Position numbers and translations under genes: made by a program. A DNA stretch of 19,135 bases, taken from the IMG/VR virus record IMGVR_UViG_2585427745_000007, one strand, 5' to 3'. Under the pieces are notes generated by a model. The model was not told the DNA's origin, did no database searches, and saw only the letters and a list, made by a program, of their open reading frames with translations. The stretch is from a virus (taxonomy: Duplodnaviria; Heunggongvirae; Uroviricota; Caudoviricetes). Position 1 is the stretch's first letter. Each line of letters starts with the position of its first letter. Positions 1 to 19,135 of the stretch are shown in pieces.

Positions 1-311
1 CGGTCGAACTCCGCCTTCGCAAAATAAGCGGAAGCCTGGCGAAGGATATCGTTACTGCGGCGCAGTTCACGATTTTCACGCTCCAGCTCTTTCAGACGCT
101 GACGTTCAGCGGTGGTGAGCCCTCCATCACCGCCCCCGGTATCCCGCTCATGCTGGCGAACCCAGACACGCAGAGTCTCCGGCGTACAGCCAATCTTTGG
201 AGCAATGGAACAAATTGTCGCCCATTGTGAGTCATATTCGCCCTGACTTTCCAGAACCATACGGACTGCCCGTTGACGGACTTCAGGGGAAAAACGAGTA
301 TTTTTAGTCAT
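1..311 (-). CDS. IS3-family transposase OrfA (N-terminal 103 codons; 3' end and orfB outside window)
   Basis: ATG at 309-311 on the minus strand, preceded by AGAGG-like RBS (GAAAGAGGTAAACAGG ATG); open to the window edge; strong family-level match from memory. Confidence 0.85.
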
Positions 312-365
312 CCTGTTTACCTCTTTCTCAGGAAGTTTAGTCTCCAGGATTCCCGGGGCGGTTCA
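1..365 (-). mobile_element. IS3-family insertion sequence (IS629/IS1203-like), left end only; terminal inverted repeat ends at about 365 (minus-strand terminus TGAACCGCCCCGGGAATCC...), rest of element lies beyond window start
   Basis: Reverse complement of 1-311 translates to [104 protein letters not shown], recognised as an IS3-family OrfA (HTH plus leucine zipper). The TG...-type terminus sits 54 nt upstream of the OrfA ATG. The IS629 subgroup assignment is from memory and unverified. Confidence 0.8.
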
Positions 366-4043: not shown

Positions 4044-4233
4044 ACTGCAGGCGCTGCGTCAGGCGCGCCTTGATTTATTAACCGGTAAACGGGTGGTGTC
4101 TGTCCAGAAAGATGGTCGCAGAATTGAATATACGGAGGCTTCTCTGGATGAGCTTAACCGGGCGATCAATGATGCGGAGTCGGTACTGGGGACAACCCGA
4201 CGTCGCCGTCGTCCGCTGGGAGTGAGGTTATGA
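4027..4233 (+). CDS. W: Head-tail joining / head completion protein W
   Basis: 68 aa, gpW-like (LTGKRVVSVQKDGRRIEYTEASLDEL); overlaps the A stop and shares ATGA with the B start. Confidence 0.9.
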   Translation: MVTVAELQALRQARLDLLTGKRVVSVQKDGRRIEYTEASLDELNRAINDAESVLGTTRRRRRPLGVRL

Positions 4234-5822
4234 AACGAACGCCTGTCCTGATTGATGTGAACGGCGTTCCGCTTCGTGAGAGTCTCAGCTACAACGGGGG
4301 CGGCGCAGGATTTGGCGGGCAAATGGCGGAGTGGTTGCCACCGGCGCAGAGTGCCGATGCAGCCCTGCTGCCTGCGTTGCGTCTGGGGAATGCCCGGGCA
4401 GATGATCTGGTGCGCAATAACGGGATAGCGGCTAATGCGGTGGCCCTGCATAAGGATCATATTGTCGGGCATATGTTTCTGATCAGCTACCGTCCGAACT
4501 GGCGCTGGCTGGGGATGCGGGAGACTGCGGCAAAAAGTTTTGTCGATGAGGTGGAGGCGGCCTGGTCGGAATACGCCGAAGGGATGTTTGGCGAGATCGA
4601 CGTGGAAGGGAAACGCACGTTTACGGAATTTATCCGTGAAGGTGTGGGCGTTCATGCGTTTAACGGCGAAATCTTTGTGCAGCCGGTCTGGGATACGGAG
4701 AGCACGCAACTGTTTCGTACGCGTTTTAAAGCCGTGAGTCCGAAACGGGTGGACACGCCAGGACACGGTATGGGGAACCGTTTTCTGCGGGCCGGTGTGG
4801 AGGTCGATCGATATGGTCGTGCCGTTGCGTACCATATCTGTGAGGATGATTTTCCTCGCTCCGGGAGTGGACGATGGGAACGGATCCCGCGTGAACTTCC
4901 CACCGGGCGTCCGGCCATGCTGCATATTTTCGAGCCGGTGGAGGACGGGCAGACCCGTGGGGCCAATCAGTTTTACAGCGTAATGGAACGGCTGAAGATG
5001 CTCGATTCCCTGCAGGCAACACAGCTTCAGTCGGCCATAGTGAAGGCGATGTATGCAGCGACGATTGAAAGTGAACTTGATACCGAAAAGGCCTTTGAAT
5101 ATATCGCCGGTGCGCCGCAGGGGCAGAAGGATAATCCGCTTATTAATATTCTGGAGAAGTTCTCCACCTGGTATGACACGAATAGCGTGACGCTGGGCGG
5201 TGTCAAAATTCCGCACCTTTTCCCCGGTGATGATCTGAAACTTCAGACCGCGCAGGATTCAGACAATGGATTTTCGGCGCTTGAACAGGCGCTGCTGCGG
5301 TATATCGCCGCCGGTCTTGGCGTTTCCTACGAACAGTTGTCCCGTGATTACTCGAAGGTCAGTTATTCAAGTGCCCGCGCATCCGCCAATGAGTCGTGGC
5401 GCTATTTTATGGGGCGGCGAAAATTTATTGCGTCCCGGCTGGCCACGCAGATGTTTTCCTGCTGGCTGGAAGAGGCACTTCTTCGGGGGATTATTCGTCC
5501 GCCACGGGCGCGTTTTGATTTTTATCAGGCGCGATCAGCCTGGTCACGGGCTGAGTGGATTGGAGCCGGAAGAATGGCCATTGACGGGCTCAAGGAGGTT
5601 CAGGAATCAGTGATGCGCATTGAGGCCGGACTGAGCACGTATGAGAAAGAGCTGGCGCTGATGGGCGAGGATTATCAGGACATTTTCCGCCAGCAGGTCA
5701 GGGAATCTGCAGAGCGGGAAAAAGCCGGACTCTCACGTCCGGTGTGGATAGCGCAGGCGTATCAGCAGCAGATAGCGGAGAGTCGCAGGCCGGAAGAGGA
5801 GACAACACCACGTGAGACGTAA
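4230..5822 (+). CDS. B: Portal protein B
   Basis: 530 aa; extensive lambda gpB similarity (LPALRLGNARADDLVRNNG..., ...AMLHIFEPVEDGQTRGANQFYSVMERLKMLD...). Confidence 0.95.
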   Translation: MKRTPVLIDVNGVPLRESLSYNGGGAGFGGQMAEWLPPAQSADAALLPALRLGNARADDLVRNNGIAANAVALHKDHIVGHMFLISYRPNWRWLGMRETAAKSFVDEVEAAWSEYAEGMFGEIDVEGKRTFTEFIREGVGVHAFNGEIFVQPVWDTESTQLFRTRFKAVSPKRVDTPGHGMGNRFLRAGVEVDRYGRAVAYHICEDDFPRSGSGRWERIPRELPTGRPAMLHIFEPVEDGQTRGANQFYSVMERLKMLDSLQATQLQSAIVKAMYAATIESELDTEKAFEYIAGAPQGQKDNPLINILEKFSTWYDTNSVTLGGVKIPHLFPGDDLKLQTAQDSDNGFSALEQALLRYIAAGLGVSYEQLSRDYSKVSYSSARASANESWRYFMGRRKFIASRLATQMFSCWLEEALLRGIIRPPRARFDFYQARSAWSRAEWIGAGRMAIDGLKEVQESVMRIEAGLSTYEKELALMGEDYQDIFRQQVRESAEREKAGLSRPVWIAQAYQQQIAESRRPEEETTPRET

Positions 5823-5878
5823 TCTTTCACACATTATTGCCGCAGCATTCAATGAACCGCTGCTTCTGGAGCCCGCCT

Positions 5879-7318
5879 ATGCGCGGGTTTTCTTTTGCGC
5901 GCTCGGGCGCGAGATGGGGGCAGCACGTCTTTCAGTTTACGCTTACGCAGGTACAGCTTGATGCTCCCGGAATGCTGGCTGAAACGGACGAGTACATGGC
6001 CGGAGGTAAACGACCGGCCCGTGTTTACCGGGTGGTGAACGGTATTGCTGTACTGCCGGTGACCGGCACGCTGGTGCACCGGCTGGGCGGTATGCGGCCA
6101 TTTTCCGGAATGACAGGCTATGACGGCATTGTCGCCTGTCTTCAGCAGGCAATGGCAGATAGCCAGGTGCGGGGCGTACTGCTGGACATTGACAGTCCGG
6201 GCGGGCAGGCCGCCGGCGCGTTTGACTGCGCTGACATGATTTACCGCCTCCGGCAGCAGAAGCCGGTCTGGGCACTGTGTAATGACACGGCCTGTTCTGC
6301 AGCCATGCTGCTGGCGTCGGCCTGCTCCCGACGGCTGGTTACCCAGACATCCCGTATCGGCTCCATTGGCGTGATGATGAGCCATGTCAGCTATGCCGGT
6401 CATCTGGCGCAGGCCGGGGTGGATATCACGCTGATTTATGCCGGGGCGCACAAGGTGGATGGCAATCAGTTTGAAGCCTTACCGGCAGAGGTGCGTCAGG
6501 ACATGCAGCAGCGGGTTGATGCGGCGCACCGGATGTTTGCCGAAAAAGTGGCGATGTATACGGGGCTGTCTGTGGAAGCTGTCACGGGGACAGAGGCTGC
6601 CGTTTTTGAAGGTCAGTCCGCTATTAAGGCCGGACTGGCGGATGAATTAATCAATGCGTCGGATGCCATCAGCGTGATGGCTGCGGCGCTGAACACTCAT
6701 GATACAGGAGGCACTATGCCGCAATTAACTGCAACGGAAGCTGCCGTGCAGGAGAACCAGCGAGTGATGGGGATCCTGACATGCCAGGAAGCGAAAGGAC
6801 GTGAACAGCTTGCCACGATGCTGGCAGGGCAACAGGGCATGAGCGTTGAACAGGCCCGGGCGATTCTGGCCGCGGCGGCACCACAGCAGCCGGTGGCATC
6901 CGCGCAGAGTGAAGCCGATCGCATTATGGCGTGTGAAGAAGCGAAAGGTCGTGAACAACTGGCGGCAACGCTGGCGGCGATGCCGGAGATGACGGTGGAA
7001 AAAGCCCGCCCGATCCTGGCTGCCTCACCGCAGGCGAATGCCGGGCCCTCACTTCGTGATCAGATCATGGCCCTGGATGAGGCAAAAGGGGCAGAAGCGC
7101 AGGCTGAAAAACTGGCGGCCTGCCCGGGAATGACCGTGGAGAACGCCCGGGCTGTGCTGGCTGCGGGATCAGGTAAGGCCGAACCGGTCTCTGCATCCAC
7201 AACCGCCTTGTTTGAACATTTCATGGCGAATCATTCACCGGCAGCGGTGCGGGGTGGCGTGTCACAGACGTCAGAAGACGGTGATGCGGACGTGAAAATG
7301 CTCATGGCCATGCCATGA
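5879..7318 (+). CDS. C: Prohead protease C (S49/ClpP-like peptidase) with C-terminal scaffold domain. The N-terminal about 30 codons homologous to lambda gpC are encoded in a different frame (5812-5961), so the gene carries an apparent +1 frameshift and may be a pseudogene or sequencing error
   Basis: Main body (frame of 5837-7318) matches lambda gpC (VVNGIAVLPVTGTLV, SGMTGYDGI, VWALCNDTACSAAMLLASACSRRLVTQTSRIGSIGVMMSHV). A short ORF from GTG 5812 (overlapping the B stop) encodes RRNLSHIIAAAFNEPLLLEPAYARVFFCAL, matching the lambda gpC N-terminus, then stops at 5959-5961. Confidence 0.8.
   Translation: MRGFSFARSGARWGQHVFQFTLTQVQLDAPGMLAETDEYMAGGKRPARVYRVVNGIAVLPVTGTLVHRLGGMRPFSGMTGYDGIVACLQQAMADSQVRGVLLDIDSPGGQAAGAFDCADMIYRLRQQKPVWALCNDTACSAAMLLASACSRRLVTQTSRIGSIGVMMSHVSYAGHLAQAGVDITLIYAGAHKVDGNQFEALPAEVRQDMQQRVDAAHRMFAEKVAMYTGLSVEAVTGTEAAVFEGQSAIKAGLADELINASDAISVMAAALNTHDTGGTMPQLTATEAAVQENQRVMGILTCQEAKGREQLATMLAGQQGMSVEQARAILAAAAPQQPVASAQSEADRIMACEEAKGREQLAATLAAMPEMTVEKARPILAASPQANAGPSLRDQIMALDEAKGAEAQAEKLAACPGMTVENARAVLAAGSGKAEPVSASTTALFEHFMANHSPAAVRGGVSQTSEDGDADVKMLMAMP
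6503..7318 (+). CDS. nu3: Scaffolding protein Nu3, nested in-frame in the 3' part of C (internal start uncertain: ATG at 6503, 6533 or 6716)
   Basis: Lambda Nu3 is translated from an internal in-frame start within C. The candidate ATG at 6716 has an AGGAGG-like RBS (CAGGAGG, 4-nt spacing). The C-terminal region contains three tandem EAKGREQLA...MTVE.AR.ILAA repeats. Confidence 0.4.
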   Translation: MQQRVDAAHRMFAEKVAMYTGLSVEAVTGTEAAVFEGQSAIKAGLADELINASDAISVMAAALNTHDTGGTMPQLTATEAAVQENQRVMGILTCQEAKGREQLATMLAGQQGMSVEQARAILAAAAPQQPVASAQSEADRIMACEEAKGREQLAATLAAMPEMTVEKARPILAASPQANAGPSLRDQIMALDEAKGAEAQAEKLAACPGMTVENARAVLAAGSGKAEPVSASTTALFEHFMANHSPAAVRGGVSQTSEDGDADVKMLMAMP

Positions 7319-7759: not shown

Positions 7760-8788
7760 ATGGGATTGTTTACGACCCGCCAGTTACTCGGTTATACCGA
7801 ACAAAAAGTTAAATTCCGTGCGCTGTTTCTGGAGCTGTTTTTCCGCCGTACGGTGAATTTCCACACCGAAGAGGTGATGCTGGACAAAATTACCGGAAAA
7901 ACGCCGGTGGCGGCCTATGTCTCCCCGATCGTTGAAGGAAAAGTGCTTCGCCATCGCGGTGGTGAAACCCGCGTGTTACGTCCGGGCTACGTCAAGCCCA
8001 AACACGAATTTAATTACCAGCAGGCGGTTGAGCGCCTTCCTGGTGAAGATCCGGCTCAGCTGAACGACCCGGCCTACCGTCGTCTGCGTATCATTACCGA
8101 TAACCTCAAACAGGAAGAGCACGCCATTGTCCAGGTGGAAGAAATGCAGGCGGTGAATGCCGTGCTGTATGGCAAATACACCATGGAAGGGGATCAGTTT
8201 GATACTGTCGAGGTGGATTTCGGGCGCTCTGAAGGAAATAACATTGAGCAGGCTGACGGTAAAAAATGGTCTGAGCAGGACCGTGATACGTTTGATCCGA
8301 CGCATGATATTGACCTCTACTGCGATCAGGCCAGCGGCCTTGTGAATATCGCCATTATGGACGGTACGGTCTGGCGTCTGCTGAATGGCTTTAAGCTGTT
8401 CCGCGAAAAACTGGATACCCGTCGCGGCTCAAATTCACAACTCGAAACGGCAGTGAAAGACCTGGGGGCGGTGGTGTCCTTCAAGGGGTATTACGGCGAT
8501 CTGGCCATTGTGGTGGCGAAAACGTCTTATGTGGCAGAGGACGGTACCGAAAAACGTTATCTGCCGGAGGGCATGCTGGTGCTGGGGAATACGGCGGCAG
8601 AGGGGATTCGTTGCTATGGTGCCATTCAGGATGCACAGGCGTTGTCCGAAGGTGTGGTGGCTTCTTCCCGTTACCCGAAACACTGGCTGACCGTGGGCGA
8701 TCCGTCCTGTGAATTCACCATGACGCAGTCCGCTCCGCTGATGGTGCTGCCGGATCCGGATGAGTTTGTGGTGGTACAGGTGAAATAA
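7760..8788 (+). CDS. E: Major capsid protein E
   Basis: 342 aa; strong lambda gpE similarity (YVSPIV.G.V.R.RGG, PGYVKPKHE, DPAYRRLRII, LDTRRGSNS.LETAVKDLG); RBS AAGGAA upstream of ATG 7760. Confidence 0.95.
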   Translation: MGLFTTRQLLGYTEQKVKFRALFLELFFRRTVNFHTEEVMLDKITGKTPVAAYVSPIVEGKVLRHRGGETRVLRPGYVKPKHEFNYQQAVERLPGEDPAQLNDPAYRRLRIITDNLKQEEHAIVQVEEMQAVNAVLYGKYTMEGDQFDTVEVDFGRSEGNNIEQADGKKWSEQDRDTFDPTHDIDLYCDQASGLVNIAIMDGTVWRLLNGFKLFREKLDTRRGSNSQLETAVKDLGAVVSFKGYYGDLAIVVAKTSYVAEDGTEKRYLPEGMLVLGNTAAEGIRCYGAIQDAQALSEGVVASSRYPKHWLTVGDPSCEFTMTQSAPLMVLPDPDEFVVVQVK

Positions 8789-10517: not shown

Positions 10518-11264
10518 ATGGCAACACCAAATCCCCTTGAGCCGGTAAAAGGTGCCGGTACCACTCTGTGGGTTTACAACGGCAAGGGTGATGCTTATGC
10601 AAACCCGTTGTCAGACGATGACTGGCAGCGACTGGCTAAGGTGAAGGATCTGACGCCGGGCGAGATGACGGCAGAATCCTACGATGATAACTACCTGGAT
10701 GATGAAGACGCGGACTGGACCGCGACCGGGCAGGGACAGAAATCTGCAGGTGATACCAGTTTTACGCTGGCCTGGAAACCGGGAGAGGAAGGCCAGAAAG
10801 GGCTTATAGGCTGGTTTGAAAGCGGCGATGTCCGGGCCTATAAAATCCGTTTTCCGAATGGCACGGTGGATGTGTTTCGTGGCTGGGTCAGCAGTATCGG
10901 TAAGGCCGTGACGGCGAAAGAAGTGATCACCCGCACGGTGAAAGTCACTAACGTGGGTAAACCTTCTGTAGCGGAAGAACGCAGCAAAATTACGCCGGTC
11001 ACTGCGATTAAGGTAACGCCGACAGGTACGGTTGAAAAAGGGAAAACAACCACCCTGACCGTTACTGTGGAACCGGAAAATGCAACGGATAAGACATTCA
11101 GGGCGATTTCCGCCGATCCATCAAAAGCCACCATTAGCGTGAAAGATATGACGATTACTGTGACGGGGGTTAAGGATGGAAAAGTCAGCATCCCTGTGAT
11201 TTCCGGTAATGGTCAGTTTGCTGCGGTGGCTGAAATTACCGTTAATAATGTGCCGGGTGGCTAA
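10518..11264 (+). CDS. V: Major tail (tube) protein V with C-terminal Ig-like (Big_2-type) domain
   Basis: 248 aa; [37 protein letters not shown]...[38 protein letters not shown] is gpV-like. Confidence 0.95.
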
Positions 11265-11282
11265 AGAGCTGAGAGATAAGCG

Positions 11283-11714
11283 ATGTTCCTGAAAACAGAA
11301 CAATTTGAATATAACGGTGTATCCGTCACGCTTTCTGAGCTGTCTGCGCTGCAGCGTATTGAGCATCTTGCCCTCCTGAAACGGCGGGCAGAAGAGGCTG
11401 AAGCCAGCGGCAACCTGCAGGTGAGTGTGGAAGATCTTGTCAGAACCGGCGCGTTTCTGGTGGCGATGTCCCTGTGGCATAACCATCCACAGAAAACGCA
11501 GTCACCGTCAATGAATGAGGCCGTGATGAAGATAGAGCAGGAAGTGCTCACCACCTGGCCTGCAGATGCCATTGCCCGGGCGGAAGACGTGGTGTTGTGC
11601 CTGTCCGGGATGATCGAAGCTGTTCGTCCGGATACTGATATTACTGAAGTGGCGAAAAATAACACGCTGACTGATGATGATTTTTCTGCGGGAAAGTCTT
11701 CGACGGCGAGCTGA
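11283..11714 (+). CDS. G: Tail assembly chaperone G
   Basis: 143 aa; MFLKTEQFEYNGVSVTLSELSALQRIEHLALLKRRAEEAEAS... is gpG-like. Confidence 0.93.
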   Translation: MFLKTEQFEYNGVSVTLSELSALQRIEHLALLKRRAEEAEASGNLQVSVEDLVRTGAFLVAMSLWHNHPQKTQSPSMNEAVMKIEQEVLTTWPADAIARAEDVVLCLSGMIEAVRPDTDITEVAKNNTLTDDDFSAGKSSTAS

Positions 11715-12154
11715 ACTTTGCCCTCAGACTGGCGCGTGAGATGGGGAGACCCGACTGGCGCGCCATGCTTGCCGGGATGACATCCACCGAATATGCCGAC
11801 TGGCACCGTTTTTACCGCACGCATTATTTTCAGGATACCCAGCTGGATATGCATTTTTCCGGGCTGACGTACGCTGTACTCAGCCTGTTTTTTTGCGATC
11901 CGGATATGCATCCCTCTGATTTCAGTCTGCTTGTCCCCCGGCATGAGGAAGAGCAGGTGGAGAGGCCGGATGAGGACAAAATGCTGATGCAGAAAGCGGC
12001 AGGACTTGCCGGAGGCGTCCGGTTCGGTGGGGACGGAGGGCGCGATATTTTATCGTCTGCGGATGTGGCGGATGTCATGGTGGATGATGCCGCATTAATG
12101 ATGGCTTCAGCGGGGATTCCGGGAGGTGTGAGATATGTCCCAGCCGGTTGGTGA
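11283..12154 (+). CDS. T: Tail assembly protein G-T fusion, made by programmed -1 ribosomal frameshift at the slippery heptamer G_GGA_AAG (11690-11696)
   Basis: Slippery heptamer GGGAAAG lies 18 nt before the G stop; the -1 frame continues open to 12154, and the shifted reading (...GRPDWRAMLAGMTSTEYADWHRFY...) is gpT-like. Confidence 0.85.
11690..11696 (+). promoter_or_regulatory. Programmed -1 ribosomal frameshift slippery site (G GGA AAG) for the G to G-T switch
   Basis: Canonical X_XXY_YYZ heptamer in the G reading frame, identical to the lambda G-T site. Confidence 0.85.
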
Positions 12155-14687
12155 TCTTGTTATTGACCTTAGTCTGGATGCTGTCCGTTTCGATGAGCAG
12201 ATGAGCCGGGTAAGGCGTCATTTTTCAGGTCTGGATACCGACGCCAGAAAAACCGCCAGTGCTGTTGAACAGGGCCTGAGCCGCCAGGCGCTGGCTGCAC
12301 AAAAAGCCGGGATTTCCGTCGGGCAGTATAAAGCGGCCATGCGAACCCTGCCCGCACAGTTTACGGATATCGCCACGCAGCTTGCCGGTGGTCAGAATCC
12401 CTGGCTCATCCTGCTGCAACAGGGCGGTCAGGTGAAGGACTCCTTCGGCGGGATGATCCCCATGTTCAGGGGGCTTGCCGGTGCGATCACCCTGCCGATG
12501 GTCGGGGTCACCTCGCTGGCGGTGGCGACAGGTGCGCTGGTGTACGCCTGGTACCAGGGAGATTCCACGCTTTCAGCGTTTAATAAAACCCTGGTTCTTT
12601 CCGGTAATCAGTCCGGACTGACTGCCGATCGTATGCTGACTCTCTCAAGAGCCGGGCAGGCAGCAGGGCTGACGTTTAACCAGGCGAGAGAGTCACTGGC
12701 AGCCCTGGTGAATGCCGGTGTGCGTGGTGGTGAACAGTTTGATGCCATCAACCAGAGTGTCGCGCGTTTTGCGTCTGCATCCGGTGTGGAGGTGGATAAA
12801 GTCGCTGAAGCCTTCGGGAAGCTGACCACTGACCCGACGTCGGGACTGATGGCGATGGCGCGCCAGTTCCGTAACGTGACGGCAGAGCAGATTGCGTATG
12901 TTGCACAGCTGCAGCGTTCCGGAGACGAGGCCGGGGCATTGCAGGCGGCGAACGATATCGCCACGAAAGGCTTTGATGAGCAGACCCGTCGCCTGAAAGA
13001 AAACATGGGAACACTGGAGACCTGGGCGGATAAAACAGGGAAGGCATTCAAATCGATGTGGGATGCCATTCTGGATATCGGTCGTCCTGAATCCTCAGCG
13101 GATATGCTCGCCAGTGCGCAGAAGGCATTTGATGAGGCGGATAAAAAATGGCAGTGGTACCAGAGCCGGAGCCAGCGCCGGGGAAAGACCTCCTCTTTTC
13201 GTGCGAACCTTCAGGGGGCATGGGATGACCGGGAAAATGCCCGTCTGGGTCTGGCAGCGGCCACGCTGCAGTCGGATATGGAAAAAGCCGGTGAACTGGC
13301 GGCAAGGGACCGGGCTGAGCGTGAGGCGTCACAGCTGAAGTATACCGGAGAGGCGCAGAAGGCGTATGAGCGCCTGCAGACGCCGCTGGATAAATATACC
13401 GCCCGTCAGAAAGAGCTGAATAAGGCCCTGAAAGACGGAAAAATCCTGCAGGCGGATTACAACACGCTGATGGCGTCGGCAAAAAAGGATTATGAATCGA
13501 CGCTGAAAAAGCCGTCAGGTGTGAAGGTGTCTGCCGGTGAGCGCCAGGAAGACCGGGCGCATGCAGCCATGCTGGCGCTTGAAACCGAGCTCAGGACGCT
13601 GGAAAAACACAGCGGTGTGAATGAGAAAATCAGCCAGCAGCGCCGGGATTTATGGGAAGCGGAAAATCAGTATGTGGTCCTGAAAGAGGCCGCCACGAAA
13701 CGGCAGTTATCTGAGCAGGAAAAATCCCTGCTGGCCCATGAGAAAGAAACGCTGGAGTACAAACGCCAGCTGGCTGAGCTGGGCGACAAGATAGAACACC
13801 AGAAGCGGCTGAATGAGCTGGCACAGCAGGCGGCGCGGTTTGAGCAGCAGCAGAGCGCAAAAGCCCGCGGCCTCACTGACCGTCAGGCGCAGCGGGAGTC
13901 GGAAGAGCAGCGCCTTCGTGAGGTGTACGGTGATAATCCGGCTGCGCTGGCGAAGGCCACATCGGCACTGAAGAACACCTGGTCTGCGGAGGAGCAGCTT
14001 CGTGGAAGCTGGATGGCCGGGATGAAGTCCGGCTGGGGCGAGTGGGCGGAAAGTGCGACGGACAGTTTTTCGCAGGTTAAAAACGCGGCCACGCAGACCT
14101 TTGACGGTATTGCACAGAATATGGCGGCGATGCTGACCGGCAGTGAGCAGAACTGGCGTGGTTTCACCCGTTCCGTGCTCTCCATGCTGACAGAGATTTT
14201 TCTGAAGCAGGCAATGGTGGGGATTGTCGGAAGTATCGGCAGCGCCATTGGCGGGGCTGTTGGTGGTGGCGCATCCGCGTCAGGCGGTACAGCCATTCAG
14301 GCAGCTGCGGCGAAATTCCATTTTGCGACCGGAGGATTTACGGGAACCGGCGGCAAATATGAACCTGCGGGGATTGTTCATCGCGGGGAGTTTGTCTTCA
14401 CGAAGGAGGCGACCAGCCGGATTGGTGTCGGCAATCTGTACCGCCTGATGCGGGGCTATGCGGAAGGTGGTTATGTCGGCGGTGCCGGAAGTCCGGCGCA
14501 GATGCGGCGGGCGGAAGGCATTAATTTTAATCAGAACAATCACGTGGTGATTCAGAACGACGGCCCCAACGGGCGGGCAGGGCCGCAGCTGATGAAAGCG
14601 GTGTATGAGATGGCCCGCAAGGGGGCACAGGATGAACTCCGGCTGCAGTTGCGTGATGGCGGTATGTTATCAGGGAGCGGTGGATGA
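12135..14687 (+). CDS. H: Tail tape measure protein H
   Basis: 850 aa; collinear similarity to lambda gpH (MSQPVGDLVIDLSLDAVRFDEQMSRVRRHFSG... and the C-terminal GGFTGTGGKYEPAGIVHRGEFVFTKEATSRIG); GGGAGG RBS upstream. Confidence 0.95.
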   Translation: MSQPVGDLVIDLSLDAVRFDEQMSRVRRHFSGLDTDARKTASAVEQGLSRQALAAQKAGISVGQYKAAMRTLPAQFTDIATQLAGGQNPWLILLQQGGQVKDSFGGMIPMFRGLAGAITLPMVGVTSLAVATGALVYAWYQGDSTLSAFNKTLVLSGNQSGLTADRMLTLSRAGQAAGLTFNQARESLAALVNAGVRGGEQFDAINQSVARFASASGVEVDKVAEAFGKLTTDPTSGLMAMARQFRNVTAEQIAYVAQLQRSGDEAGALQAANDIATKGFDEQTRRLKENMGTLETWADKTGKAFKSMWDAILDIGRPESSADMLASAQKAFDEADKKWQWYQSRSQRRGKTSSFRANLQGAWDDRENARLGLAAATLQSDMEKAGELAARDRAEREASQLKYTGEAQKAYERLQTPLDKYTARQKELNKALKDGKILQADYNTLMASAKKDYESTLKKPSGVKVSAGERQEDRAHAAMLALETELRTLEKHSGVNEKISQQRRDLWEAENQYVVLKEAATKRQLSEQEKSLLAHEKETLEYKRQLAELGDKIEHQKRLNELAQQAARFEQQQSAKARGLTDRQAQRESEEQRLREVYGDNPAALAKATSALKNTWSAEEQLRGSWMAGMKSGWGEWAESATDSFSQVKNAATQTFDGIAQNMAAMLTGSEQNWRGFTRSVLSMLTEIFLKQAMVGIVGSIGSAIGGAVGGGASASGGTAIQAAAAKFHFATGGFTGTGGKYEPAGIVHRGEFVFTKEATSRIGVGNLYRLMRGYAEGGYVGGAGSPAQMRRAEGINFNQNNHVVIQNDGPNGRAGPQLMKAVYEMARKGAQDELRLQLRDGGMLSGSGG

Positions 14688-15013
14688 AAACCTTTCGCTG
14701 GAAAGTGAAGCCGGATATGGAGGTGAACTCGCAGCCATCGGTGCGTGAAGTGCGTTTTGGTTACGGGTACTCACAGCGTATGGCGGCAGGGCTGAATGCT
14801 GACCTGAAAACATACAGGGTGACGCTTTCCGTGACCCGGGAGGAGGCCCGGCATCTGGAAGCGTTCCTGGCAGAGCACGGTGGCTGGAAGGCATTTTTGT
14901 GGAAGCCACCCTATGCATACCGGCAGATAAAGGTGACCTGTGCCGGGTGGTCTGCGCGGGTCGGGATGTTGCGCGTTGAGTTCAGCGCGGAGTTTAAGCA
15001 GGTGGTGAACTGA
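14684..15013 (+). CDS. M: Minor tail protein M
   Basis: 109 aa; MKTFRWKVKP...LKTYRVTLSV...HGGWKAFLWKPPY..RQIKVTCAGWSARVGMLRVEFSAEFKQVVN is gpM-like; ATGA overlap with H. Confidence 0.95.
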   Translation: MKTFRWKVKPDMEVNSQPSVREVRFGYGYSQRMAAGLNADLKTYRVTLSVTREEARHLEAFLAEHGGWKAFLWKPPYAYRQIKVTCAGWSARVGMLRVEFSAEFKQVVN

Positions 15014-15711
15014 TGCAGGATATTCGCGAAGAAAGTCTGAACGAGTCGGTTAAGTCAGAGCAGTCACCGCGGGTGGTACTCTGGGAAATCGACCTGACGG
15101 TGCAGGGCGGTGAGCGGTATTTTTTCTGCAATGAGCTGAATGAAAAAGGGGAGCCGGTGACCTGGCAGGGGCGTGAATATCAGGCGTACCCGATTGAGGG
15201 GAGTGGCTTTGAGATGAACGGGAAGGGCAGCAGTGCCAGACCATCGCTGACGGTGTCCAATCTGTTTGGTCTGGTCACCGGGATGGCGGAAGACCTGCAG
15301 AGTCTGGTGGGGGCCACGGTGGTCCGCCGCCGGGTGTATGCCCGTTTTCTGGATGCGGTGAATTTCGTTGCGGGCAATCCGGAGGCGGACCCGGAGCAGG
15401 AGCTGAGTGACCGCTGGGTGGTGGAGCAGATGTCGCAGCTGACAGCCATGACGGCCTCGTTTGTGCTGGCTACACCGACCGAGACGGACGGGGCGCTGTT
15501 TCCCGGTCGCATCATGCTGGCGAACACCTGTATGTGGGATTACCGGGGAGATGAATGCGGGTATAACGGTCCTGCGGTGGCGGATGAGTTCGACAACCCC
15601 ACCACGGATATCCGTAAGGACAGATGCAGCAAGTGCATGCGCGGGTGTGAACTGCGCAGGAATGTCGGCAATTTTGGCGGTTTCCTTTCCATTAATAAAC
15701 TTTCGCAGTAA
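15013..15711 (+). CDS. L: Minor tail protein L
   Basis: 232 aa; VVLWEIDLT..GGERYFFCNE.NEKGEPVTWQGREYQ and the C-terminal Cys cluster (CSKCMRGC...NVGNFGGFLSINKLSQ) are gpL-like. Confidence 0.95.
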   Translation: MQDIREESLNESVKSEQSPRVVLWEIDLTVQGGERYFFCNELNEKGEPVTWQGREYQAYPIEGSGFEMNGKGSSARPSLTVSNLFGLVTGMAEDLQSLVGATVVRRRVYARFLDAVNFVAGNPEADPEQELSDRWVVEQMSQLTAMTASFVLATPTETDGALFPGRIMLANTCMWDYRGDECGYNGPAVADEFDNPTTDIRKDRCSKCMRGCELRRNVGNFGGFLSINKLSQ

Positions 15712-15721
15712 ATCCCGGTTT

Positions 15722-16465
15722 ATGACACAGACTGAATCAGCGATTCTGGCGCATGCCCGGCGGTGTGCGCCTGCGGAGTCGTGCGGCTTCGTGATAAGCA
15801 CGCCGGAGGGGGAGTGGTATATCCCTTGTGTGAATATTTCTGCAGAGCCGGAGGCGTATTTTCGTATCGCACCGGAAGACTGGCTGCGGGCAGAGATGCA
15901 GGGGGAGATTGTGGCACTGGTCCACAGTCATCCCGGTGGGCTGCCCTGGCTGAGCGAGGCTGACCGGCGGCTGCAGATAAAAAGCGCACTGCCCTGGTGG
16001 CTGGTCTGCCGGGGTGACATTCACAAATTCCGCTGTGTGCCACATCTGACAGGACGGCGCTTTGAGCACGGGGTGACGGACTGTTACACGCTGTTCCGGG
16101 ATGCTTATCATCTGGCGGGGACTGAGATGCCGGATTTTCATCGCGAGGATGACTGGTGGCGCAACGGTCAGAACCTTTACCTGGACAATATGGCGGTCAC
16201 CGGCTTTTACCGGGTGCCCCTGTCCTCTGCACAGGCGGGCGATATTCTGCTGTGCTGCTTTGGTGCTTCGGTACCGAACCATGCCGCCATTTACTGCGGC
16301 AACGGTGAGCTGCTTCACCATCTGCCTGAACAACTGAGTAAACGGGAGAGGTATTCCGAAAAATGGCAACGACGAACGCATTCAGTCTGGCGTCACCGCC
16401 ACTGGCACGCATCTGCCTTCACGGGGATTTACAACGATTTGGCCGCCGCCTCAGCCTGTATGTGA
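15722..16465 (+). CDS. K: Tail assembly protein K (N-terminal JAMM/MPN+ metalloprotease-like motif, C-terminal NlpC/P60-like domain)
   Basis: MTQTESAILAHARRCAPAESCGF... with HSHPGGLPWLSEAD (HxHx7SxxD) and a Cys/His pair (DCYTLF, NHAAIY). Start taken at ATG 15722 rather than the ORF-track upstream extension into L; overlaps I by 103 nt. Confidence 0.88.
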   Translation: MTQTESAILAHARRCAPAESCGFVISTPEGEWYIPCVNISAEPEAYFRIAPEDWLRAEMQGEIVALVHSHPGGLPWLSEADRRLQIKSALPWWLVCRGDIHKFRCVPHLTGRRFEHGVTDCYTLFRDAYHLAGTEMPDFHREDDWWRNGQNLYLDNMAVTGFYRVPLSSAQAGDILLCCFGASVPNHAAIYCGNGELLHHLPEQLSKRERYSEKWQRRTHSVWRHRHWHASAFTGIYNDLAAASACM

Positions 16466-17043
16466 ACACGGCAGCGGAAGCCATTCGCGCCCTGTCGATG
16501 CAGATGCCGGGCTTTCGCCGTCAGATGAACGAAGGCTGGTACCAGATACGTATTGCCGGTTATGACACGGCACCGGAGGCGGTGTACGCCCGTCTTCACG
16601 AACAGCTGGGTGAGGGAACGGTCATCCACATTGTGCCGCGACTGGCCGGGGCCGGAAAGGGTGGACTGCAGATTGTGCTGGGGGCGGCAGCCATCGTGGG
16701 CTCTTTCTTCACTGCCGGGGCATCAATGGCGTTATGGGGTTCAGCCCTGGCAGCCGGTGGTTTTTCTGCCACCACGATGCTGTTTTCACTTGGAGCCAGC
16801 ATGATTCTGGGCGGTGTGGCCCAGATGCTGGCCCCGAAGGCAAAAACACCGGATTACCGCGCAACGGATAACGGCAGACAGAACACGTACTTTTCCTCAC
16901 TGGATAACATGATTGCCCAGGGGAACCCGATGCCGGTGCCTTACGGGGAAATGCTGGTTGGCTCCCGCCGTATATCCCAGGACATCAGCACCCGTGATGA
17001 AGGCGGGGGCGGAAAGGTCGTGGTTATCGGGCGGCAGGGGTAA
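16363..17043 (+). CDS. I: Tail assembly protein I
   Basis: 226 aa; MATTNAFSLASPPLARICLHGDLQRFGRR... and the glycine-rich hydrophobic C-terminus are gpI-like. Confidence 0.93.
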   Translation: MATTNAFSLASPPLARICLHGDLQRFGRRLSLYVNTAAEAIRALSMQMPGFRRQMNEGWYQIRIAGYDTAPEAVYARLHEQLGEGTVIHIVPRLAGAGKGGLQIVLGAAAIVGSFFTAGASMALWGSALAAGGFSATTMLFSLGASMILGGVAQMLAPKAKTPDYRATDNGRQNTYFSSLDNMIAQGNPMPVPYGEMLVGSRRISQDISTRDEGGGGKVVVIGRQG

Positions 17044-17089
17044 AAAGAATAAAAAAATCCCGCAGTGATCGCGGACAGGAACTGCGGGA
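17044..17089 (-). terminator. Intrinsic terminator on the minus strand: 8-bp stem (UCCCGCAG/CUGCGGGA) followed by UUUUUUUAUUCUUUUU
   Basis: Inverted repeat at 17058-17065 and 17082-17089, with an A-run on the plus strand (17044-17057) that is a U-tract on the minus strand; lies immediately after the I stop codon. Confidence 0.5.
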
Positions 17090-17147
17090 GAGTTACGAAG
17101 ATTAAGTGTAAGGAATTATTCTTATATCACGACAAAAAAATTAACGC
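17050..17147 (-). ncRNA. Candidate small noncoding RNA (about 100 nt) in the I-J intergenic insertion, defined by a promoter-like element and an intrinsic terminator
   Basis: No ORF in the predicted transcript (no ATG; GTG followed by an immediate stop); bounded by the -35/-10 element at 17154-17181 and the terminator at 17044-17089. Purely sequence-based prediction. Confidence 0.3.
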
Positions 17148-17153
17148 AGAGAA

Positions 17154-17181
17154 ATTATACGCGCCACAGTCAGTTTGTGAA
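17154..17181 (-). promoter_or_regulatory. Sigma70-like promoter on the minus strand: -35 TTCACA (17176-17181), 16-nt spacer, -10 TATAAT (17154-17159)
   Basis: Perfect TATAAT and 5/6 match to TTGACA with a 16-nt spacer, read directly from the reverse complement. Confidence 0.35.
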
Positions 17182-17256
17182 AATGTGAAGATATTCAGAA
17201 TTTTTATGCCATTACCGGTTTTAACCAACAGGATTATCGGTGGGCATGAAAGAAAA

Positions 17257-17289
17257 CCCCGGTATCTGCTGATACCGGGGTTTCTCTTT
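17257..17289. terminator. Bidirectional intrinsic-terminator-like hairpin: perfect 10-bp stem CCCCGGTATC/GATACCGGGG, 4-nt loop, flanked by AGAAAA upstream and TTTCTCTTT downstream
   Basis: Perfect inverted repeat at 17257-17280 with A-tract and T-tract flanks, about 100 bp upstream of the J start. Confidence 0.5.
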
Positions 17290-17386
17290 AGCATGGCAGA
17301 AATGTGTTTCATGCTTTTCGGGCGAAGGATATCCGACTTCTGTACGGAATGGCAAGTGGCGGTTAATTTATTCAGGGGAAGGCTGT

Positions 17387-19135
17387 ATGGGAAAAGGTGG
17401 CGGTAAGGCACACACGCCTCGTGAGGCGAAGGATAATCTCAAATCCACGCAGATGATGAGTGTGATTGATGCGATTGGTGAGGGACCGATAGAAGGCCCG
17501 GTGAAGGGACTGCAGAGTATCCTGGTGAACAAAACCCCGCTGACGGACACGGACGGTAATCCCGTGATACACGGTGTGACCGCGGTCTGGCGTGCCGGGG
17601 AGCAGGAGCAGACACCACCGGAAGGCTTTGAGTCCTCCGGAGCTGAAACCGGACTGGGCGTGGAAGTGACGAAGGCAAAACCGGTGACGCGCACCATTAC
17701 GTCCGCGAACATTGACCGCCTGCGGGTTACCTTCGGGGTGCAGTCACTGGTGGAGACCACCTCAAAGGGTGACCGTAACCCGGCATCCGTCCGCCTGCTG
17801 ATTCAGTTACAGCGTAACGGTAACTGGGTGACAGAAAAGGACGTCACCATTAACGGCAAGACCACCTCACAGTTCCTGGCCTCGGTGATTCTGGATAATC
17901 TGCCTCCCCGGCCCTTTAACATCCGGATGGTCAGGGAGACGGCGGACAGCACCACGGACCAGCTGCAGAATAAGACGCTGTGGTCGTCATACACCGAAAT
18001 CATCGATGTGAAACAGTGCTACCCGAACACGGCCATTGTGGGGCTGCAGGTGGATGCGGAGCAGTTCGGCGGCCAGCAGATGACGGTGAACTACCATATC
18101 CGCGGTCGCATCATCCAGGTGCCGTCAAACTATGACCCGGAAAAACGCACGTACAGTGGTATCTGGGACGGCAGCCTGAAACCGGCATACAGCAACAACC
18201 CGGCCTGGTGTCTGTGGGACATGCTGACTCACCCGCGCTACGGCATGGGAAAACGTCTGGGGGCGGCGGATGTGGACAAGTGGGCGCTGTATGCCATCGG
18301 GCAGTACTGCGACCAGACGGTCCCGGATGGTTTCGGGGGGACCGAGCCGCGGATGACCTTTAATGCGTACCTGGCACAACAGCGTAAGGCGTGGGACGTT
18401 CTCAGTGATTTCTGCTCGGCGATGCGCTGTATGCCGGTATGGAACGGCCAGACGCTGACGTTCGTTCAGGACCGTCCGTCGGATGTGGTGTGGCCGTACA
18501 CCAACAGCGATGTGGTGGTGGATGATAACGGCGTGGGGTTCCGCTACAGCTTCAGTGCCCTGAAGGACCGGCACACGGCGGTGGAGGTGAATTACACCGA
18601 CCCGCAGAACGGCTGGCAGACCTCCACGGAACTGGTGGAAGACCCGGAAGCCATACTGCGCTACGGACGCAACCTGCTGAAGATGGACGCGTTCGGCTGT
18701 ACCAGCCGCGGTCAGGCCCACCGTGCCGGACTGTGGGTGATAAAGACCGAACTGCTGGAAACGCAGACGGTGGATTTCACGCTCGGGTCTCAGGGGCTGC
18801 GGCACACACCCGGTGACATCATTGAAATCTGTGATAACGACTATGCCGGGACCCTGACCGGCGGACGTGTCCTGTCCATTGATGCTGCCACCCGCACCCT
18901 GACGCTGGACCGTGAAGTGACACTTCCGGAGACCGGTGCCGCCACGGTGAACCTGATTAACGGCAGCGGTAAGCCGGTGAGTGTGGACATCACCGAACAC
19001 CCCGCGCCGGACCGGATACAGGTCAGTACCCTGCCTGATGGTGTGGAGACATACGGGGTGTGGGGACTCTCCCTGCCGTCACTGCGCCGTCGCCTGTTCC
19101 GCTGTGTCTCCGTCCGGGAAAACACGGACGGCACC
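17387..19135 (+). CDS. J: Tail tip / host specificity protein J (N-terminal about 583 codons; continues beyond the window end)
   Basis: MGKGGGKAHTPREAKDNLKSTQMMSVIDAIGEGPIEGPVKGLQS... is nearly identical to the lambda gpJ N-terminus; RBS AGGGGAAGG upstream; frame open to the window edge. Absent from the ORF track only because no stop codon falls in the window. Confidence 0.93.
   Translation, partial: MGKGGGKAHTPREAKDNLKSTQMMSVIDAIGEGPIEGPVKGLQSILVNKTPLTDTDGNPVIHGVTAVWRAGEQEQTPPEGFESSGAETGLGVEVTKAKPVTRTITSANIDRLRVTFGVQSLVETTSKGDRNPASVRLLIQLQRNGNWVTEKDVTINGKTTSQFLASVILDNLPPRPFNIRMVRETADSTTDQLQNKTLWSSYTEIIDVKQCYPNTAIVGLQVDAEQFGGQQMTVNYHIRGRIIQVPSNYDPEKRTYSGIWDGSLKPAYSNNPAWCLWDMLTHPRYGMGKRLGAADVDKWALYAIGQYCDQTVPDGFGGTEPRMTFNAYLAQQRKAWDVLSDFCSAMRCMPVWNGQTLTFVQDRPSDVVWPYTNSDVVVDDNGVGFRYSFSALKDRHTAVEVNYTDPQNGWQTSTELVEDPEAILRYGRNLLKMDAFGCTSRGQAHRAGLWVIKTELLETQTVDFTLGSQGLRHTPGDIIEICDNDYAGTLTGGRVLSIDAATRTLTLDREVTLPETGAATVNLINGSGKPVSVDITEHPAPDRIQVSTLPDGVETYGVWGLSLPSLRRRLFRCVSVRENTDGT

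What the first reader, a model, noticed from the sequence alone, without database searches (positions are those of the whole stretch)
5812..5961. Apparent +1 frameshift near the 5' end of prohead protease gene C
A short frame starting at GTG 5812 (overlapping the B stop as in lambda) encodes RRNLSHIIAAAFNEPLLLEPAYARVFFCAL, matching the lambda gpC N-terminus, but stops at 5959-5961. The rest of gpC (from VVNGIAVLPV onward) is in the +1 frame. The homologous stretch is 2 nt shorter than the in-frame lambda equivalent, so this is either a genuine inactivating lesion (prophage decay, consistent with the IS insertion nearby), a sequencing or assembly error, or an N-terminally truncated protease initiated at the in-frame ATG 5879 (GGAG 7 nt upstream).
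Basis: partly seen in the sequence, partly recalled or inferred. Interest (0 to 1): 0.5.

Follow-up and report, generated by a model that had tools for sequence, protein, structure and literature searches.

The report
IS66 end scar breaks prophage protease
The head-protease gene of this E. coli prophage is thrown out of frame because 12 of its bases have been replaced by the last 13 bases of a common jumping gene (an IS66-type insertion sequence), which is ordinary prophage decay or an assembly mis-join, not a programmed frameshift.

Summary
The two-frame arrangement is real in the sequence. GTG 5812 opens a 49-codon frame that stops at TGA 5959-5961, and the rest of the gene (S49 peptidase plus scaffold) runs in the +1 frame to 7318.

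It is not a 1-2 nt indel. Against phage 21 gene 5 and about 3,000 E. coli prophage copies, all with one 501-codon ORF, the window differs only in a private patch. Twelve bases (GGTACCRCAACA) are replaced by 13 (AGTTTACGCTTAC, 5934-5946), and there is one private A>C at 5926.

Bases 5932-5946 are identical to the outermost 15 nt of the IS66-family inverted repeat (GTAAGCGTAAACTGA on the minus strand). That element occurs in 2,956 of 5,426 complete E. coli genomes. Identity to gene C resumes exactly at the IS terminus (GCAGGTAC, the would-be 8-bp target).

The window is a whole contig of a 100-bp-read MaSuRCA draft (E. coli 2-222-05_S3_C1). The split ORFs occur nowhere else.

Best reading: a one-ended IS66 remnant that inactivates gene C in a prophage that also carries an IS3-family insertion. 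An assembly chimera at an IS66 junction is a serious rival. I found no support for recoding or for a start at ATG 5879. Interest is low.

The parts
4230..5822 (+). Portal gene B (530 aa), intact. Its 3' end overlaps the gene C start by 11 nt.
   Evidence: Pfam Phage_portal_2, E = 1.6e-100. The exact protein is found on many contigs. The layout matches the phage 21 annotation.
5812..5961 (+). 5' fragment of gene C (phage 21 gene 5 / lambda C homologue). It has 49 codons: the conserved N-terminal segment, then an altered linker, ending at TGA 5959-5961.
   Evidence: Translation. Annotated as KEN93938.1 'putative head protein/prohead protease'. This product is on only one contig in the collection.
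5926..5926 (+). Private A>C substitution (AGT>CGT, S39R), 6 nt to the left of the junction. Unexplained.
   Evidence: All fetched relatives have A here. No complete E. coli genome reaches 90% identity over the 81-nt query. R39 in other drafts is encoded AGG, not CGT.
5932..5946 (-). Outermost 15 nt of an IS66-family terminal inverted repeat (minus strand 5'-GTAAGCGTAAACTGA-3'). Bases 5934-5946 (13 nt) replace the 12 nt GGTACCRCAACA of intact gene C, a net +1. Bases 5932-5933 (TC) are shared by gene C and the IS (microhomology).
   Evidence: Exact match to the IS66-type end in NZ_CP075649.1. Four independent IS copies end at ...CGCTTAC and diverge immediately afterwards. Every short-query hit in E. 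coli genomes and plasmids starts at 5932. Literature: IS66 IRs start GTAAGCG and make 8-bp direct repeats (PMC11946415).
5947..5954 (+). GCAGGTAC: the first 8 nt of restored gene C sequence, abutting the IS terminus. This would be the target-site copy of the inferred insertion. Only one copy is present.
   Evidence: Alignments. In NZ_CP075649.1 the same IS is flanked on both sides by the 8-bp duplication GCAGGTGC.
5972..7318 (+). 3' part of gene C in the +1 frame (448 codons from ATG 5972; the frame is open from 5837). It holds the whole S49 peptidase domain and the C-terminal scaffold domain.
   Evidence: Translation. Pfam PF01343. SppA structures align to residues 77-290 of the 501-aa phage 21 protein, downstream of the break. 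Annotated as KEN93939.1 and unique to this contig.
6716..7318 (+). Nested Nu3-type scaffolding ORF (200 aa), in the same frame as the 3' part of C and downstream of the lesion, so it is unaffected.
   Evidence: Corresponds to phage 21 CPT_21_06, which has its own RBS. The exact 200-aa product is present in the protein collection.

Best explanation
The frame break is a footprint of an IS66-family insertion sequence.

Inferred history: an IS66-type element, very common in E. coli, inserted into the variable linker of gene C at the 8-bp target GCAGGTAC, with its tnpA-proximal end pointing downstream. Almost all of the element was later lost. The loss also took one target copy and 12 nt of gene C, and used a 2-nt TC microhomology. 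What remains is the last 13 nt of the inverted repeat (15 nt counting the TC).

Shown directly: twelve bases became thirteen, so translation from GTG 5812 stops after 49 codons. The S49 peptidase and scaffold part is left in the +1 frame without its conserved N-terminal 31 residues.

Inferred consequence: the prohead protease is inactivated, while the nested Nu3 scaffold gene keeps its own start. Lambda C is essential, and the prophage also has an IS3-family element in its lysis gene, so this prophage copy is most likely defective. A second related prophage with an intact C gene is present in the sister isolate and could supply the protease in trans.
For: (1) The lesion is a clean block replacement inside otherwise identical sequence.
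(2) Bases 5932-5946 equal the terminal 15 nt of the IS66-type IR. Homology to gene C resumes exactly at the IS boundary, which is defined by four independent copies and by the 8-bp duplication in NZ_CP075649.1.
(3) This 15-mer is the best IS-to-window match. Chance matches reach only 13 nt.
(4) The IS end occurs at 8,370 places in 2,956 of 5,426 complete E. coli genomes.
(5) The IR signature GTAAGCG and 8-bp direct repeats are IS66 family hallmarks (PMC11946415).
(6) There is no target duplication, no second IR and no palindromic join, which is what a simple collapse of a full IS would be expected to leave. One-ended remnants fit a microhomology deletion (inference).
(7) All other genes in the 19-kb window are intact, and the patch holds the only private positions in the well-sampled head region.
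(8) A second IS lesion, from the IS3 family, sits at window 1-365 in the Rz-type lysis gene.
(9) Lambda C is essential (PMC10695390).
(10) The N-terminal 30 codons are conserved even at DNA level in phi80, Gifsy-1 and lambda-like alleles.
Against: The patch is a singleton. It was not found in complete E. coli genomes, phages, plasmids, one genome per species, viral contigs or metagenome contigs. The 49-aa and 448-aa products occur only on this contig.

Those products were not found for sister isolates from the same stool sample (same ST and serotype). Sister isolate S3_C2 is in the collection, and its retrieved contig carries a second, intact copy of C.

The source is a 269-contig MaSuRCA draft from 100-bp reads with redundant contigs.

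The patch lies 25-45 nt upstream of a boundary between two near-identical prophage copies. The private A>C at 5926 is not explained by a clean deletion breakpoint. An excision or deletion pathway that leaves one-ended IS66 scars is not something I could document.
Confidence: 0.5

Rival explanations
1. Assembly chimera. In the real genome an IS66-family element is still inserted at GCAGGTAC in one prophage copy, or IS66 junction reads come from one of two near-identical copies. The assembler (MaSuRCA super-reads with Celera consensus) joined the shared upstream sequence to the downstream contig through a low-stringency overlap. A short stub of the IS end was then frozen into the consensus. Under this reading the 13-nt remnant and the A>C at 5926 are consensus artefacts. 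Gene C is either disrupted by a full IS or intact.
For: The source is a draft from 100-bp reads assembled with MaSuRCA 2.3.2, with 269 contigs. Three contigs of the assembly share window 11476-19135 at 99.99% identity. The patch sits just upstream of the point (5971) where the window stops being identical to the second prophage copy seen in the sister isolate. At 5926 the window has the base that the IS carries at the gapless-equivalent position, while 5928, 5930 and 5931 carry gene C bases, a mosaic pattern. The split ORFs were not found for the sister isolates.
Against: I could not construct a route by which k-mer or majority-consensus steps would produce this join. Its 17-mers would be absent from reads of a full insertion. 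There is no target duplication and no second IR. No mate pairs could span a 2.5-kb IS. The IS-derived block is clean over 15 nt, not noisy. The rest of the contig shows no comparable anomaly.
Confidence: 0.3
2. The lesion is unrelated to any IS. It is a complex multi-nucleotide mutation or a local base-calling or consensus error that happens to resemble the IS66 end.
For: By BLAST statistics alone, the 21-nt match in 28 Gb has E = 0.3 and the 15-nt IS-to-window match has E = 0.08.
Against: The match is to the very terminus of the IS, and its boundary coincides to the base with the point where gene C identity resumes. For a 13-nt novel block this is about 4^-13 per IS end, roughly 1e-5 to 1e-4 after allowing for all E. 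coli IS ends and both orientations (my estimate, inference). Every short-query hit in two collections is an IS66 end starting at 5932. No local template for the patch exists in the window.
Confidence: 0.08
3. The arrangement is functional. The protease is made either from an internal start (ATG 5879 or ATG 5972), or as two pieces (49 aa plus 448 aa), or by +1 ribosomal frameshifting at or before UGA 5959.
For: GGAG lies 7 nt upstream of ATG 5879. ATG 5972 lies 11 nt after the stop and keeps the complete S49 fold, since SppA aligns to residues 77-290. An AGGU lies 3 nt upstream of GCU-UGA (read from the sequence). By general lambda knowledge, only a few gpC copies are needed per prohead.
Against: None of about 3,000 related copies, nor phage 21 itself, shares the two-frame layout. 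The candidate signals are identical in the intact relatives, so they did not evolve for this purpose. The last sense codon, GCU, cannot re-pair in the +1 frame, and there is no CUU-UGA type site at the stop. Rfam finds nothing. The N-terminal 31 residues that would be lost or detached are the most conserved part of the 5' region. The cause of the shift is IS debris.
Confidence: 0.03

Closest known systems
Phage 21 gene 5 / lambda gene C: S49 prohead protease with the nested Nu3 scaffold gene
   Same: Same position (Nu1-A-W-B-C-D-E), the same 11-nt overlap with the portal gene, a GTG start, an S49 domain and a nested in-frame scaffold ORF. About 96-99% DNA identity to phage 21 and E. coli prophage copies.
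   Different: The single 501-codon ORF is split into 49 and 448 codons by a 12-to-13-nt replacement in the linker between the conserved N-terminus and the peptidase domain.
IS66-family insertion sequences of E. coli (tnpA-tnpB-tnpC elements, about 2.5 kb, IR starting GTAAGCG, 8-bp target duplication)
   Same: Fifteen bases at 5932-5946 are identical to the outer end of the tnpA-proximal IR. They abut the gene sequence exactly at the element's terminus.
   Different: Only 13-15 nt are present. There are no transposase genes, no second IR and no duplicated target. It is debris of an element, not an element.
IS-disrupted or frameshifted genes in defective lambdoid prophages (ordinary prophage decay)
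   Same: A single essential morphogenesis gene is broken in an otherwise intact late operon. A second IS, from the IS3 family, sits in the lysis gene of the same prophage. Another draft genome has a plain G5>G4 frameshift in the same gene.
   Different: The usual cases are whole IS insertions or homopolymer indels. Here only a one-ended terminal remnant is seen.
Programmed +1 frameshifting (prfB type)
   Same: The downstream frame is +1, and the upstream frame ends in UGA with a weak AGGU 3 nt before the last sense codon.
   Different: There is no slippery P-site codon, no conservation in any relative, and the frame change was created by IS-derived sequence.

Membership tests
Lambda gpC / phage 21 gp5 prohead protease-scaffold gene | Peptidase S49 domain | tested here: met
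   PF01343, E = 4.2e-36, on the +1-frame ORF. SppA structures match residues 77-290 of the phage 21 homologue.
Lambda gpC / phage 21 gp5 prohead protease-scaffold gene | Position between portal and decoration/major capsid genes, with a start overlapping the portal stop | tested here: met
   Gene order and the 11-nt overlap are identical to the phage 21 annotation.
Lambda gpC / phage 21 gp5 prohead protease-scaffold gene | Nested in-frame scaffold (Nu3) ORF in the 3' third | tested here: met
   ORF 6716-7318 corresponds to CPT_21_06. The exact 200-aa product is on record.
Lambda gpC / phage 21 gp5 prohead protease-scaffold gene | One continuous reading frame of about 501 codons (an intact gene) | tested here: not met
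   The frame is broken at 5934-5961. By this criterion the window holds a disrupted copy (pseudogene).
IS66-family insertion sequence | Terminal inverted repeat of 20-30 bp starting GTAAGCG | tested here: inconclusive
   Only the outer 15 nt of one IR are present, with a 15/15 match to the E. coli element. The family feature is taken from PMC11946415.
IS66-family insertion sequence | 8-bp direct target duplication flanking the element | tested here: not met
   GCAGGTAC occurs once, on the right side only.
IS66-family insertion sequence | tnpA, tnpB and tnpC genes and a second IR | tested here: not met
   No further IS66 sequence is in the window or in the two sibling contigs. The other matches are 13 nt or shorter, at chance level.
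Programmed ribosomal frameshift site | Two-frame arrangement conserved among functional relatives | tested here: not met
   Phage 21 and all listed E. coli copies have one ORF. All matches are 1 nt shorter than the window.
Programmed ribosomal frameshift site | Slippery site with a stimulator (for example CUU-UGA with an SD 3 nt upstream) or a known RNA element | tested here: not met
   The sequence reads ...AGG UAC AGC UUG A in the target frame and GCU UGA in the zero frame, with no re-pairing codon. Rfam gives 0 hits.
Simple homopolymer indel (sequencing-type frameshift) | Single-base length change in a run, with flanks otherwise identical | tested here: not met
   The lesion is a 12-to-13-nt block replacement plus a substitution. 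Contrast the G5>G4 frameshift in DABSNF010000025.1.

The most novel reading that the evidence does not exclude
The remnant is genuine and records an excision or deletion pathway of IS66-family elements. That pathway would remove the element, one target copy and a few flanking bases, but leave 13-15 nt of one inverted repeat. Such a scar type has not, to my knowledge, been described for this family. If so, similar scars could be searched for systematically as fossils of past IS66 insertions.
Probability: 0.15. Interest if true: 0.35.

Novelty: already known. Interest (0 to 1): 0.13.

Why it matters
It matters little beyond annotation. It shows that this 'frameshift' should be annotated as an IS-derived disruption (pseudogene), or flagged as a possible mis-assembly, and not as two genes or a recoding site. 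It also gives a cheap diagnostic: match a private sequence patch against IS termini. If the one-ended scar is real, it is a small data point on how IS66-family elements are lost from genomes. It also suggests that this prophage cannot make its own prohead protease and would depend on a co-resident relative.

Tried and rejected
**Exact-pattern scans for the patch.** One genome per species, viral contigs and metagenome contigs gave nothing. Six 18-mer hits in unrelated MAGs and one in a viral contig were chance.

**A local template for a template-switch origin.** I looked for one on either strand of the window and found only chance 8-10-mers.

**A small inversion of the reference segment.** It does not fit by inspection.

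**Donor alleles among diverged C genes** (the pSTEC711 type and the lambda-like T43 type). Their linkers do not carry the patch.

**5926 A>C as a pre-existing polymorphism.** Other drafts do encode R39, but with AGG rather than CGT, so I rejected this.

**An IS66 variant whose subterminal sequence would extend the match to 5926.** None was found in E. coli genomes, plasmids or metagenomes.

**Predicted products of a full IS insertion and reconstructed intact 501-aa proteins.** Not in the protein collection.

**Attempts to reach the sister isolates' copy of this locus.** I recovered only a second prophage copy with an intact C.

**Other checks.** Rfam on the whole window gave no family. A conserved hairpin plus T-run at 5872-5896 is not significant. 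A literature search for the accession found nothing.
Full report
**Observation**

The window is the late operon of a phage-21-like (lambdoid) prophage: Nu1, A, W, B, C, D, E ... J.

GTG 5812 overlaps the portal gene (4230-5822) by 11 nt, as in phage 21. It opens a frame encoding VRRNLSHIIAAAFNEPLLLEPAYARVFFCAL..., which ends at TGA 5959-5961 after 49 codons. The +1 frame is open from 5837 to 7318. From ...QVQLDAPGM onward it encodes the rest of the protein, with a Peptidase_S49 domain (E = 4e-36) and the C-terminal scaffold part.

**What the lesion is**

Phage 21 gene 5 and every E. coli copy examined have one 501-codon ORF. Every match to the region is 1 nt shorter than the window: 340 vs 341 nt vs 81 nt, 180 vs 181 nt.

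Alignment shows flanks that are identical base for base. The differences are confined to 5926-5946:
- window: GCACGTCTTTCAGTTTACGCTTACGCAGG
- relatives: GCAAGTCTTTCGGTACC(A/G)CAACAGCAGG

So 12 nt (GGTACCRCAACA) are replaced by 13 nt (AGTTTACGCTTAC), and there is an A>C at 5926. This is not a 1-2 nt indel, and the stretch is not 2 nt shorter.

It is the only frame-breaking difference from an intact relative over 18.8 kb. In the well-sampled head region the patch holds the only positions private to the window. The patch was found nowhere else:
- none of 3,020 places in 1,864 complete E. coli genomes
- no phage record
- no exact match in one genome per species, in viral contigs or in metagenome contigs

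**Origin of the inserted bases**

A short-query search gave one 21-nt exact match, window 5932-5952 against NZ_CP075649.1. That site is the end of an IS66-family element (tnpA, tnpB, tnpC) plus its flank. There the element is bounded on both sides by the 8-bp duplication GCAGGTGC. It begins GTAAGCGTTAACGG... and ends ...GGTCAGTTTACGCTTAC.

Four independent copies of the element share sequence up to ...CGCTTAC and diverge immediately afterwards. This fixes the terminus.

Window 5932-5946 equals the last 15 nt of that end. On the minus strand it reads GTAAGCGTAAACTGA, which carries the GTAAGCG signature of IS66-family inverted repeats. The family makes 8-bp direct repeats (PMC11946415; another IS66 IR is given in PMC12888890).

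Identity to gene C resumes at the very next base (GCAGGTAC, 5947-5954). The 15-mer is the best match between the IS and the window, and chance matches reach only 13 nt. In both E. coli genomes and plasmids, every hit to the short query is an IS66 end beginning exactly at 5932.

This IS end is very common: 8,370 places in 2,956 of 5,426 complete genomes.

A 13-nt novel block would rarely coincide to the base with the terminus of a resident IS by chance. My estimate is 1e-5 to 1e-4 (inference). I take the IS66 origin of the inserted bases as established with about 0.85 confidence.

**Most likely mechanism**

Shown:
- Twelve bases of gene C are replaced by the terminal 13 bases of the IS66 IR.
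- The junction has a TC microhomology.
- One copy of the would-be target GCAGGTAC is on the right.
- There is no second IR, no target duplication and no transposase genes.

Inferred: an IS66-type element inserted at GCAGGTAC. A later deletion then removed nearly all of it, together with the left target copy and 12 nt of the gene. The net change is +1.

Consequences. Translation from GTG 5812 terminates at 5959. The S49 domain lies entirely downstream, because SppA aligns to residues 77-290 while the lesion is at residues 42-46. The downstream part is out of frame, however, and is separated from the N-terminal 31 residues.

Those residues are conserved even at DNA level in lambda-like, phi80 and Gifsy-1 alleles. 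The nested Nu3-type scaffold ORF (6716-7318) is untouched. Lambda C is essential (PMC10695390). The prophage copy is therefore probably unable to mature heads on its own.

It also carries the end of an IS3-family element at window 1-365, joined 33 nt before the stop of the Rz-type lysis gene.

**Provenance and the main rival**

The window is the whole contig JOSM01000106.1 of E. coli 2-222-05_S3_C1. The isolate is ST10, O15:H4, from a Tanzanian child. It was sequenced with 100-bp HiSeq reads and assembled with MaSuRCA 2.3.2 into 269 contigs (PMC6222053).

Several points favour an assembly artefact:
- Two other contigs of the assembly repeat window 11476-19135 with a single difference, so the genome holds several related prophages.
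- Contig JOSN01000170.1 of a sister isolate from the same stool carries a second head cluster with an intact 501-codon C. It is identical to the window over 4787-5925 and 11073-13470 and diverges from 5971 onward. The patch therefore lies just upstream of a boundary between two-copy and unique sequence.
- The 49-aa and 448-aa products are on record only for this contig.
- The private A>C at 5926 happens to be the base the IS carries at the gapless-equivalent position, while 5928, 5930 and 5931 keep gene C bases.

Together these keep an assembly chimera seriously in play. That would mean an IS66 junction, from a full insertion or from one of two prophage copies, frozen into the consensus.

Against it:
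- I could not find a route by which k-mer or majority-consensus steps would create this join.
- A collapsed full IS should leave both IR ends and a duplicated target.
- The IS-derived block is clean.

I put a real scar at about 0.5, a chimera at about 0.3, and a chance resemblance or other error at about 0.08. Only the reads or a PCR can decide.

**Functional readings**

The GGAG-N7-ATG at 5868-5881 and ATG 5972 are present but are identical in all intact relatives. No relative shares the two-frame layout. The last sense codon before UGA is GCU, which cannot re-pair in the +1 frame. Rfam finds nothing. A truncated, two-piece or recoded protease is not supported (about 0.03).

**Comparison with known things, and verdict**

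The gene is a disrupted member of the lambda C / phage 21 gene 5 family. The inserted bases are debris of an IS66-family element, not an element. A plain homopolymer frameshift in the same gene exists in another draft (G5>G4), which shows what an ordinary indel looks like here.

The finding is ordinary prophage decay or an assembly quirk, so novelty is 'already known' and interest is low. The only mildly new aspect would be a genuine one-ended IS66 excision scar.

Unexplained: the 5926 substitution, and the proximity of the patch to the repeat boundary (note 4).

Noticed in passing
window 1-365 (minus strand; junction at 365/366): The contig starts inside an IS3-family (IS629-like) element. 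The OrfA N-terminus (103 aa, ATG 311-309) is on the minus strand. The IS end ...GGTTCA is joined to prophage sequence 33 nt before the stop of the Rz-type lysis gene of relatives. In relative GN04592 a fragment of the same IS lies elsewhere, between ynfO and Nu1.
   Followed up: partly
window 11476-19135; L022 (JOSM01000195.1) and L023 (JOSM01000011.1): Two other contigs of the same assembly repeat this 7.66-kb tail region with one difference (11564 A/C, at position 89 of both contigs). They then diverge from each other in the J gene exactly where the window ends. This indicates at least 2-3 related prophages and redundant contigs.
   Followed up: partly
L044 (JOSN01000170.1, sister isolate 2-222-05_S3_C2): A second phage-21-like head cluster with an intact 501-aa C gene of a different allele. 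It is identical to the window over 4787-5925 and 11073-13470 and about 2% diverged in between. It could complement the broken C in trans if it is also present in the source isolate.
   Followed up: partly
window 13843-13853 (tape measure gene H, 12135-14687): A 21-nt in-frame deletion relative to relatives (850 vs 857 aa). This exact H protein is on record only for the three contigs of this assembly.
   Followed up: no
window 5866-5900: A block of about 35 nt (GAACCCGCCTATGCGCGGGTTTTCTTTTG) is invariant at DNA level across C alleles that are otherwise about 25% diverged (phage 21, pSTEC711 and lambda-like types). It can form a GC hairpin followed by a T-run. The fold is -13 kcal/mol with z = -1.3, so it is not significant. 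It may be a recombination homology island or a protein constraint.
   Followed up: partly
codon 39 of gene C (window 5926-5928); L032-L037: Six unrelated contigs encode R39 through AGG, whereas the window uses CGT and most copies have AGT (Ser). The same residue has therefore changed by two different routes.
   Followed up: partly
L038 (DABSNF010000025.1), equivalent to window 5916-5920: Another E. coli draft has a simple G5>G4 frameshift in the same gene and the same annotated 448-aa ORF. Other noisy assemblies (L053, L057) also show indels here.
   Followed up: partly
window 17044-17386: A spacer of about 340 nt lies between the tail assembly gene I and the annotated start of J. It contains ORF 17065-17406 (113 aa, no Pfam hit). 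It is also present in relatives.
   Followed up: no
window 11163-11276: A cluster of small compensating indels and substitutions relative to FDAARGOS_1255, at the 3' end of the major tail gene V and in the V-G intergenic region. It looks like a mosaic allele boundary, not a lesion. The V protein is an exact match to many records.
   Followed up: no
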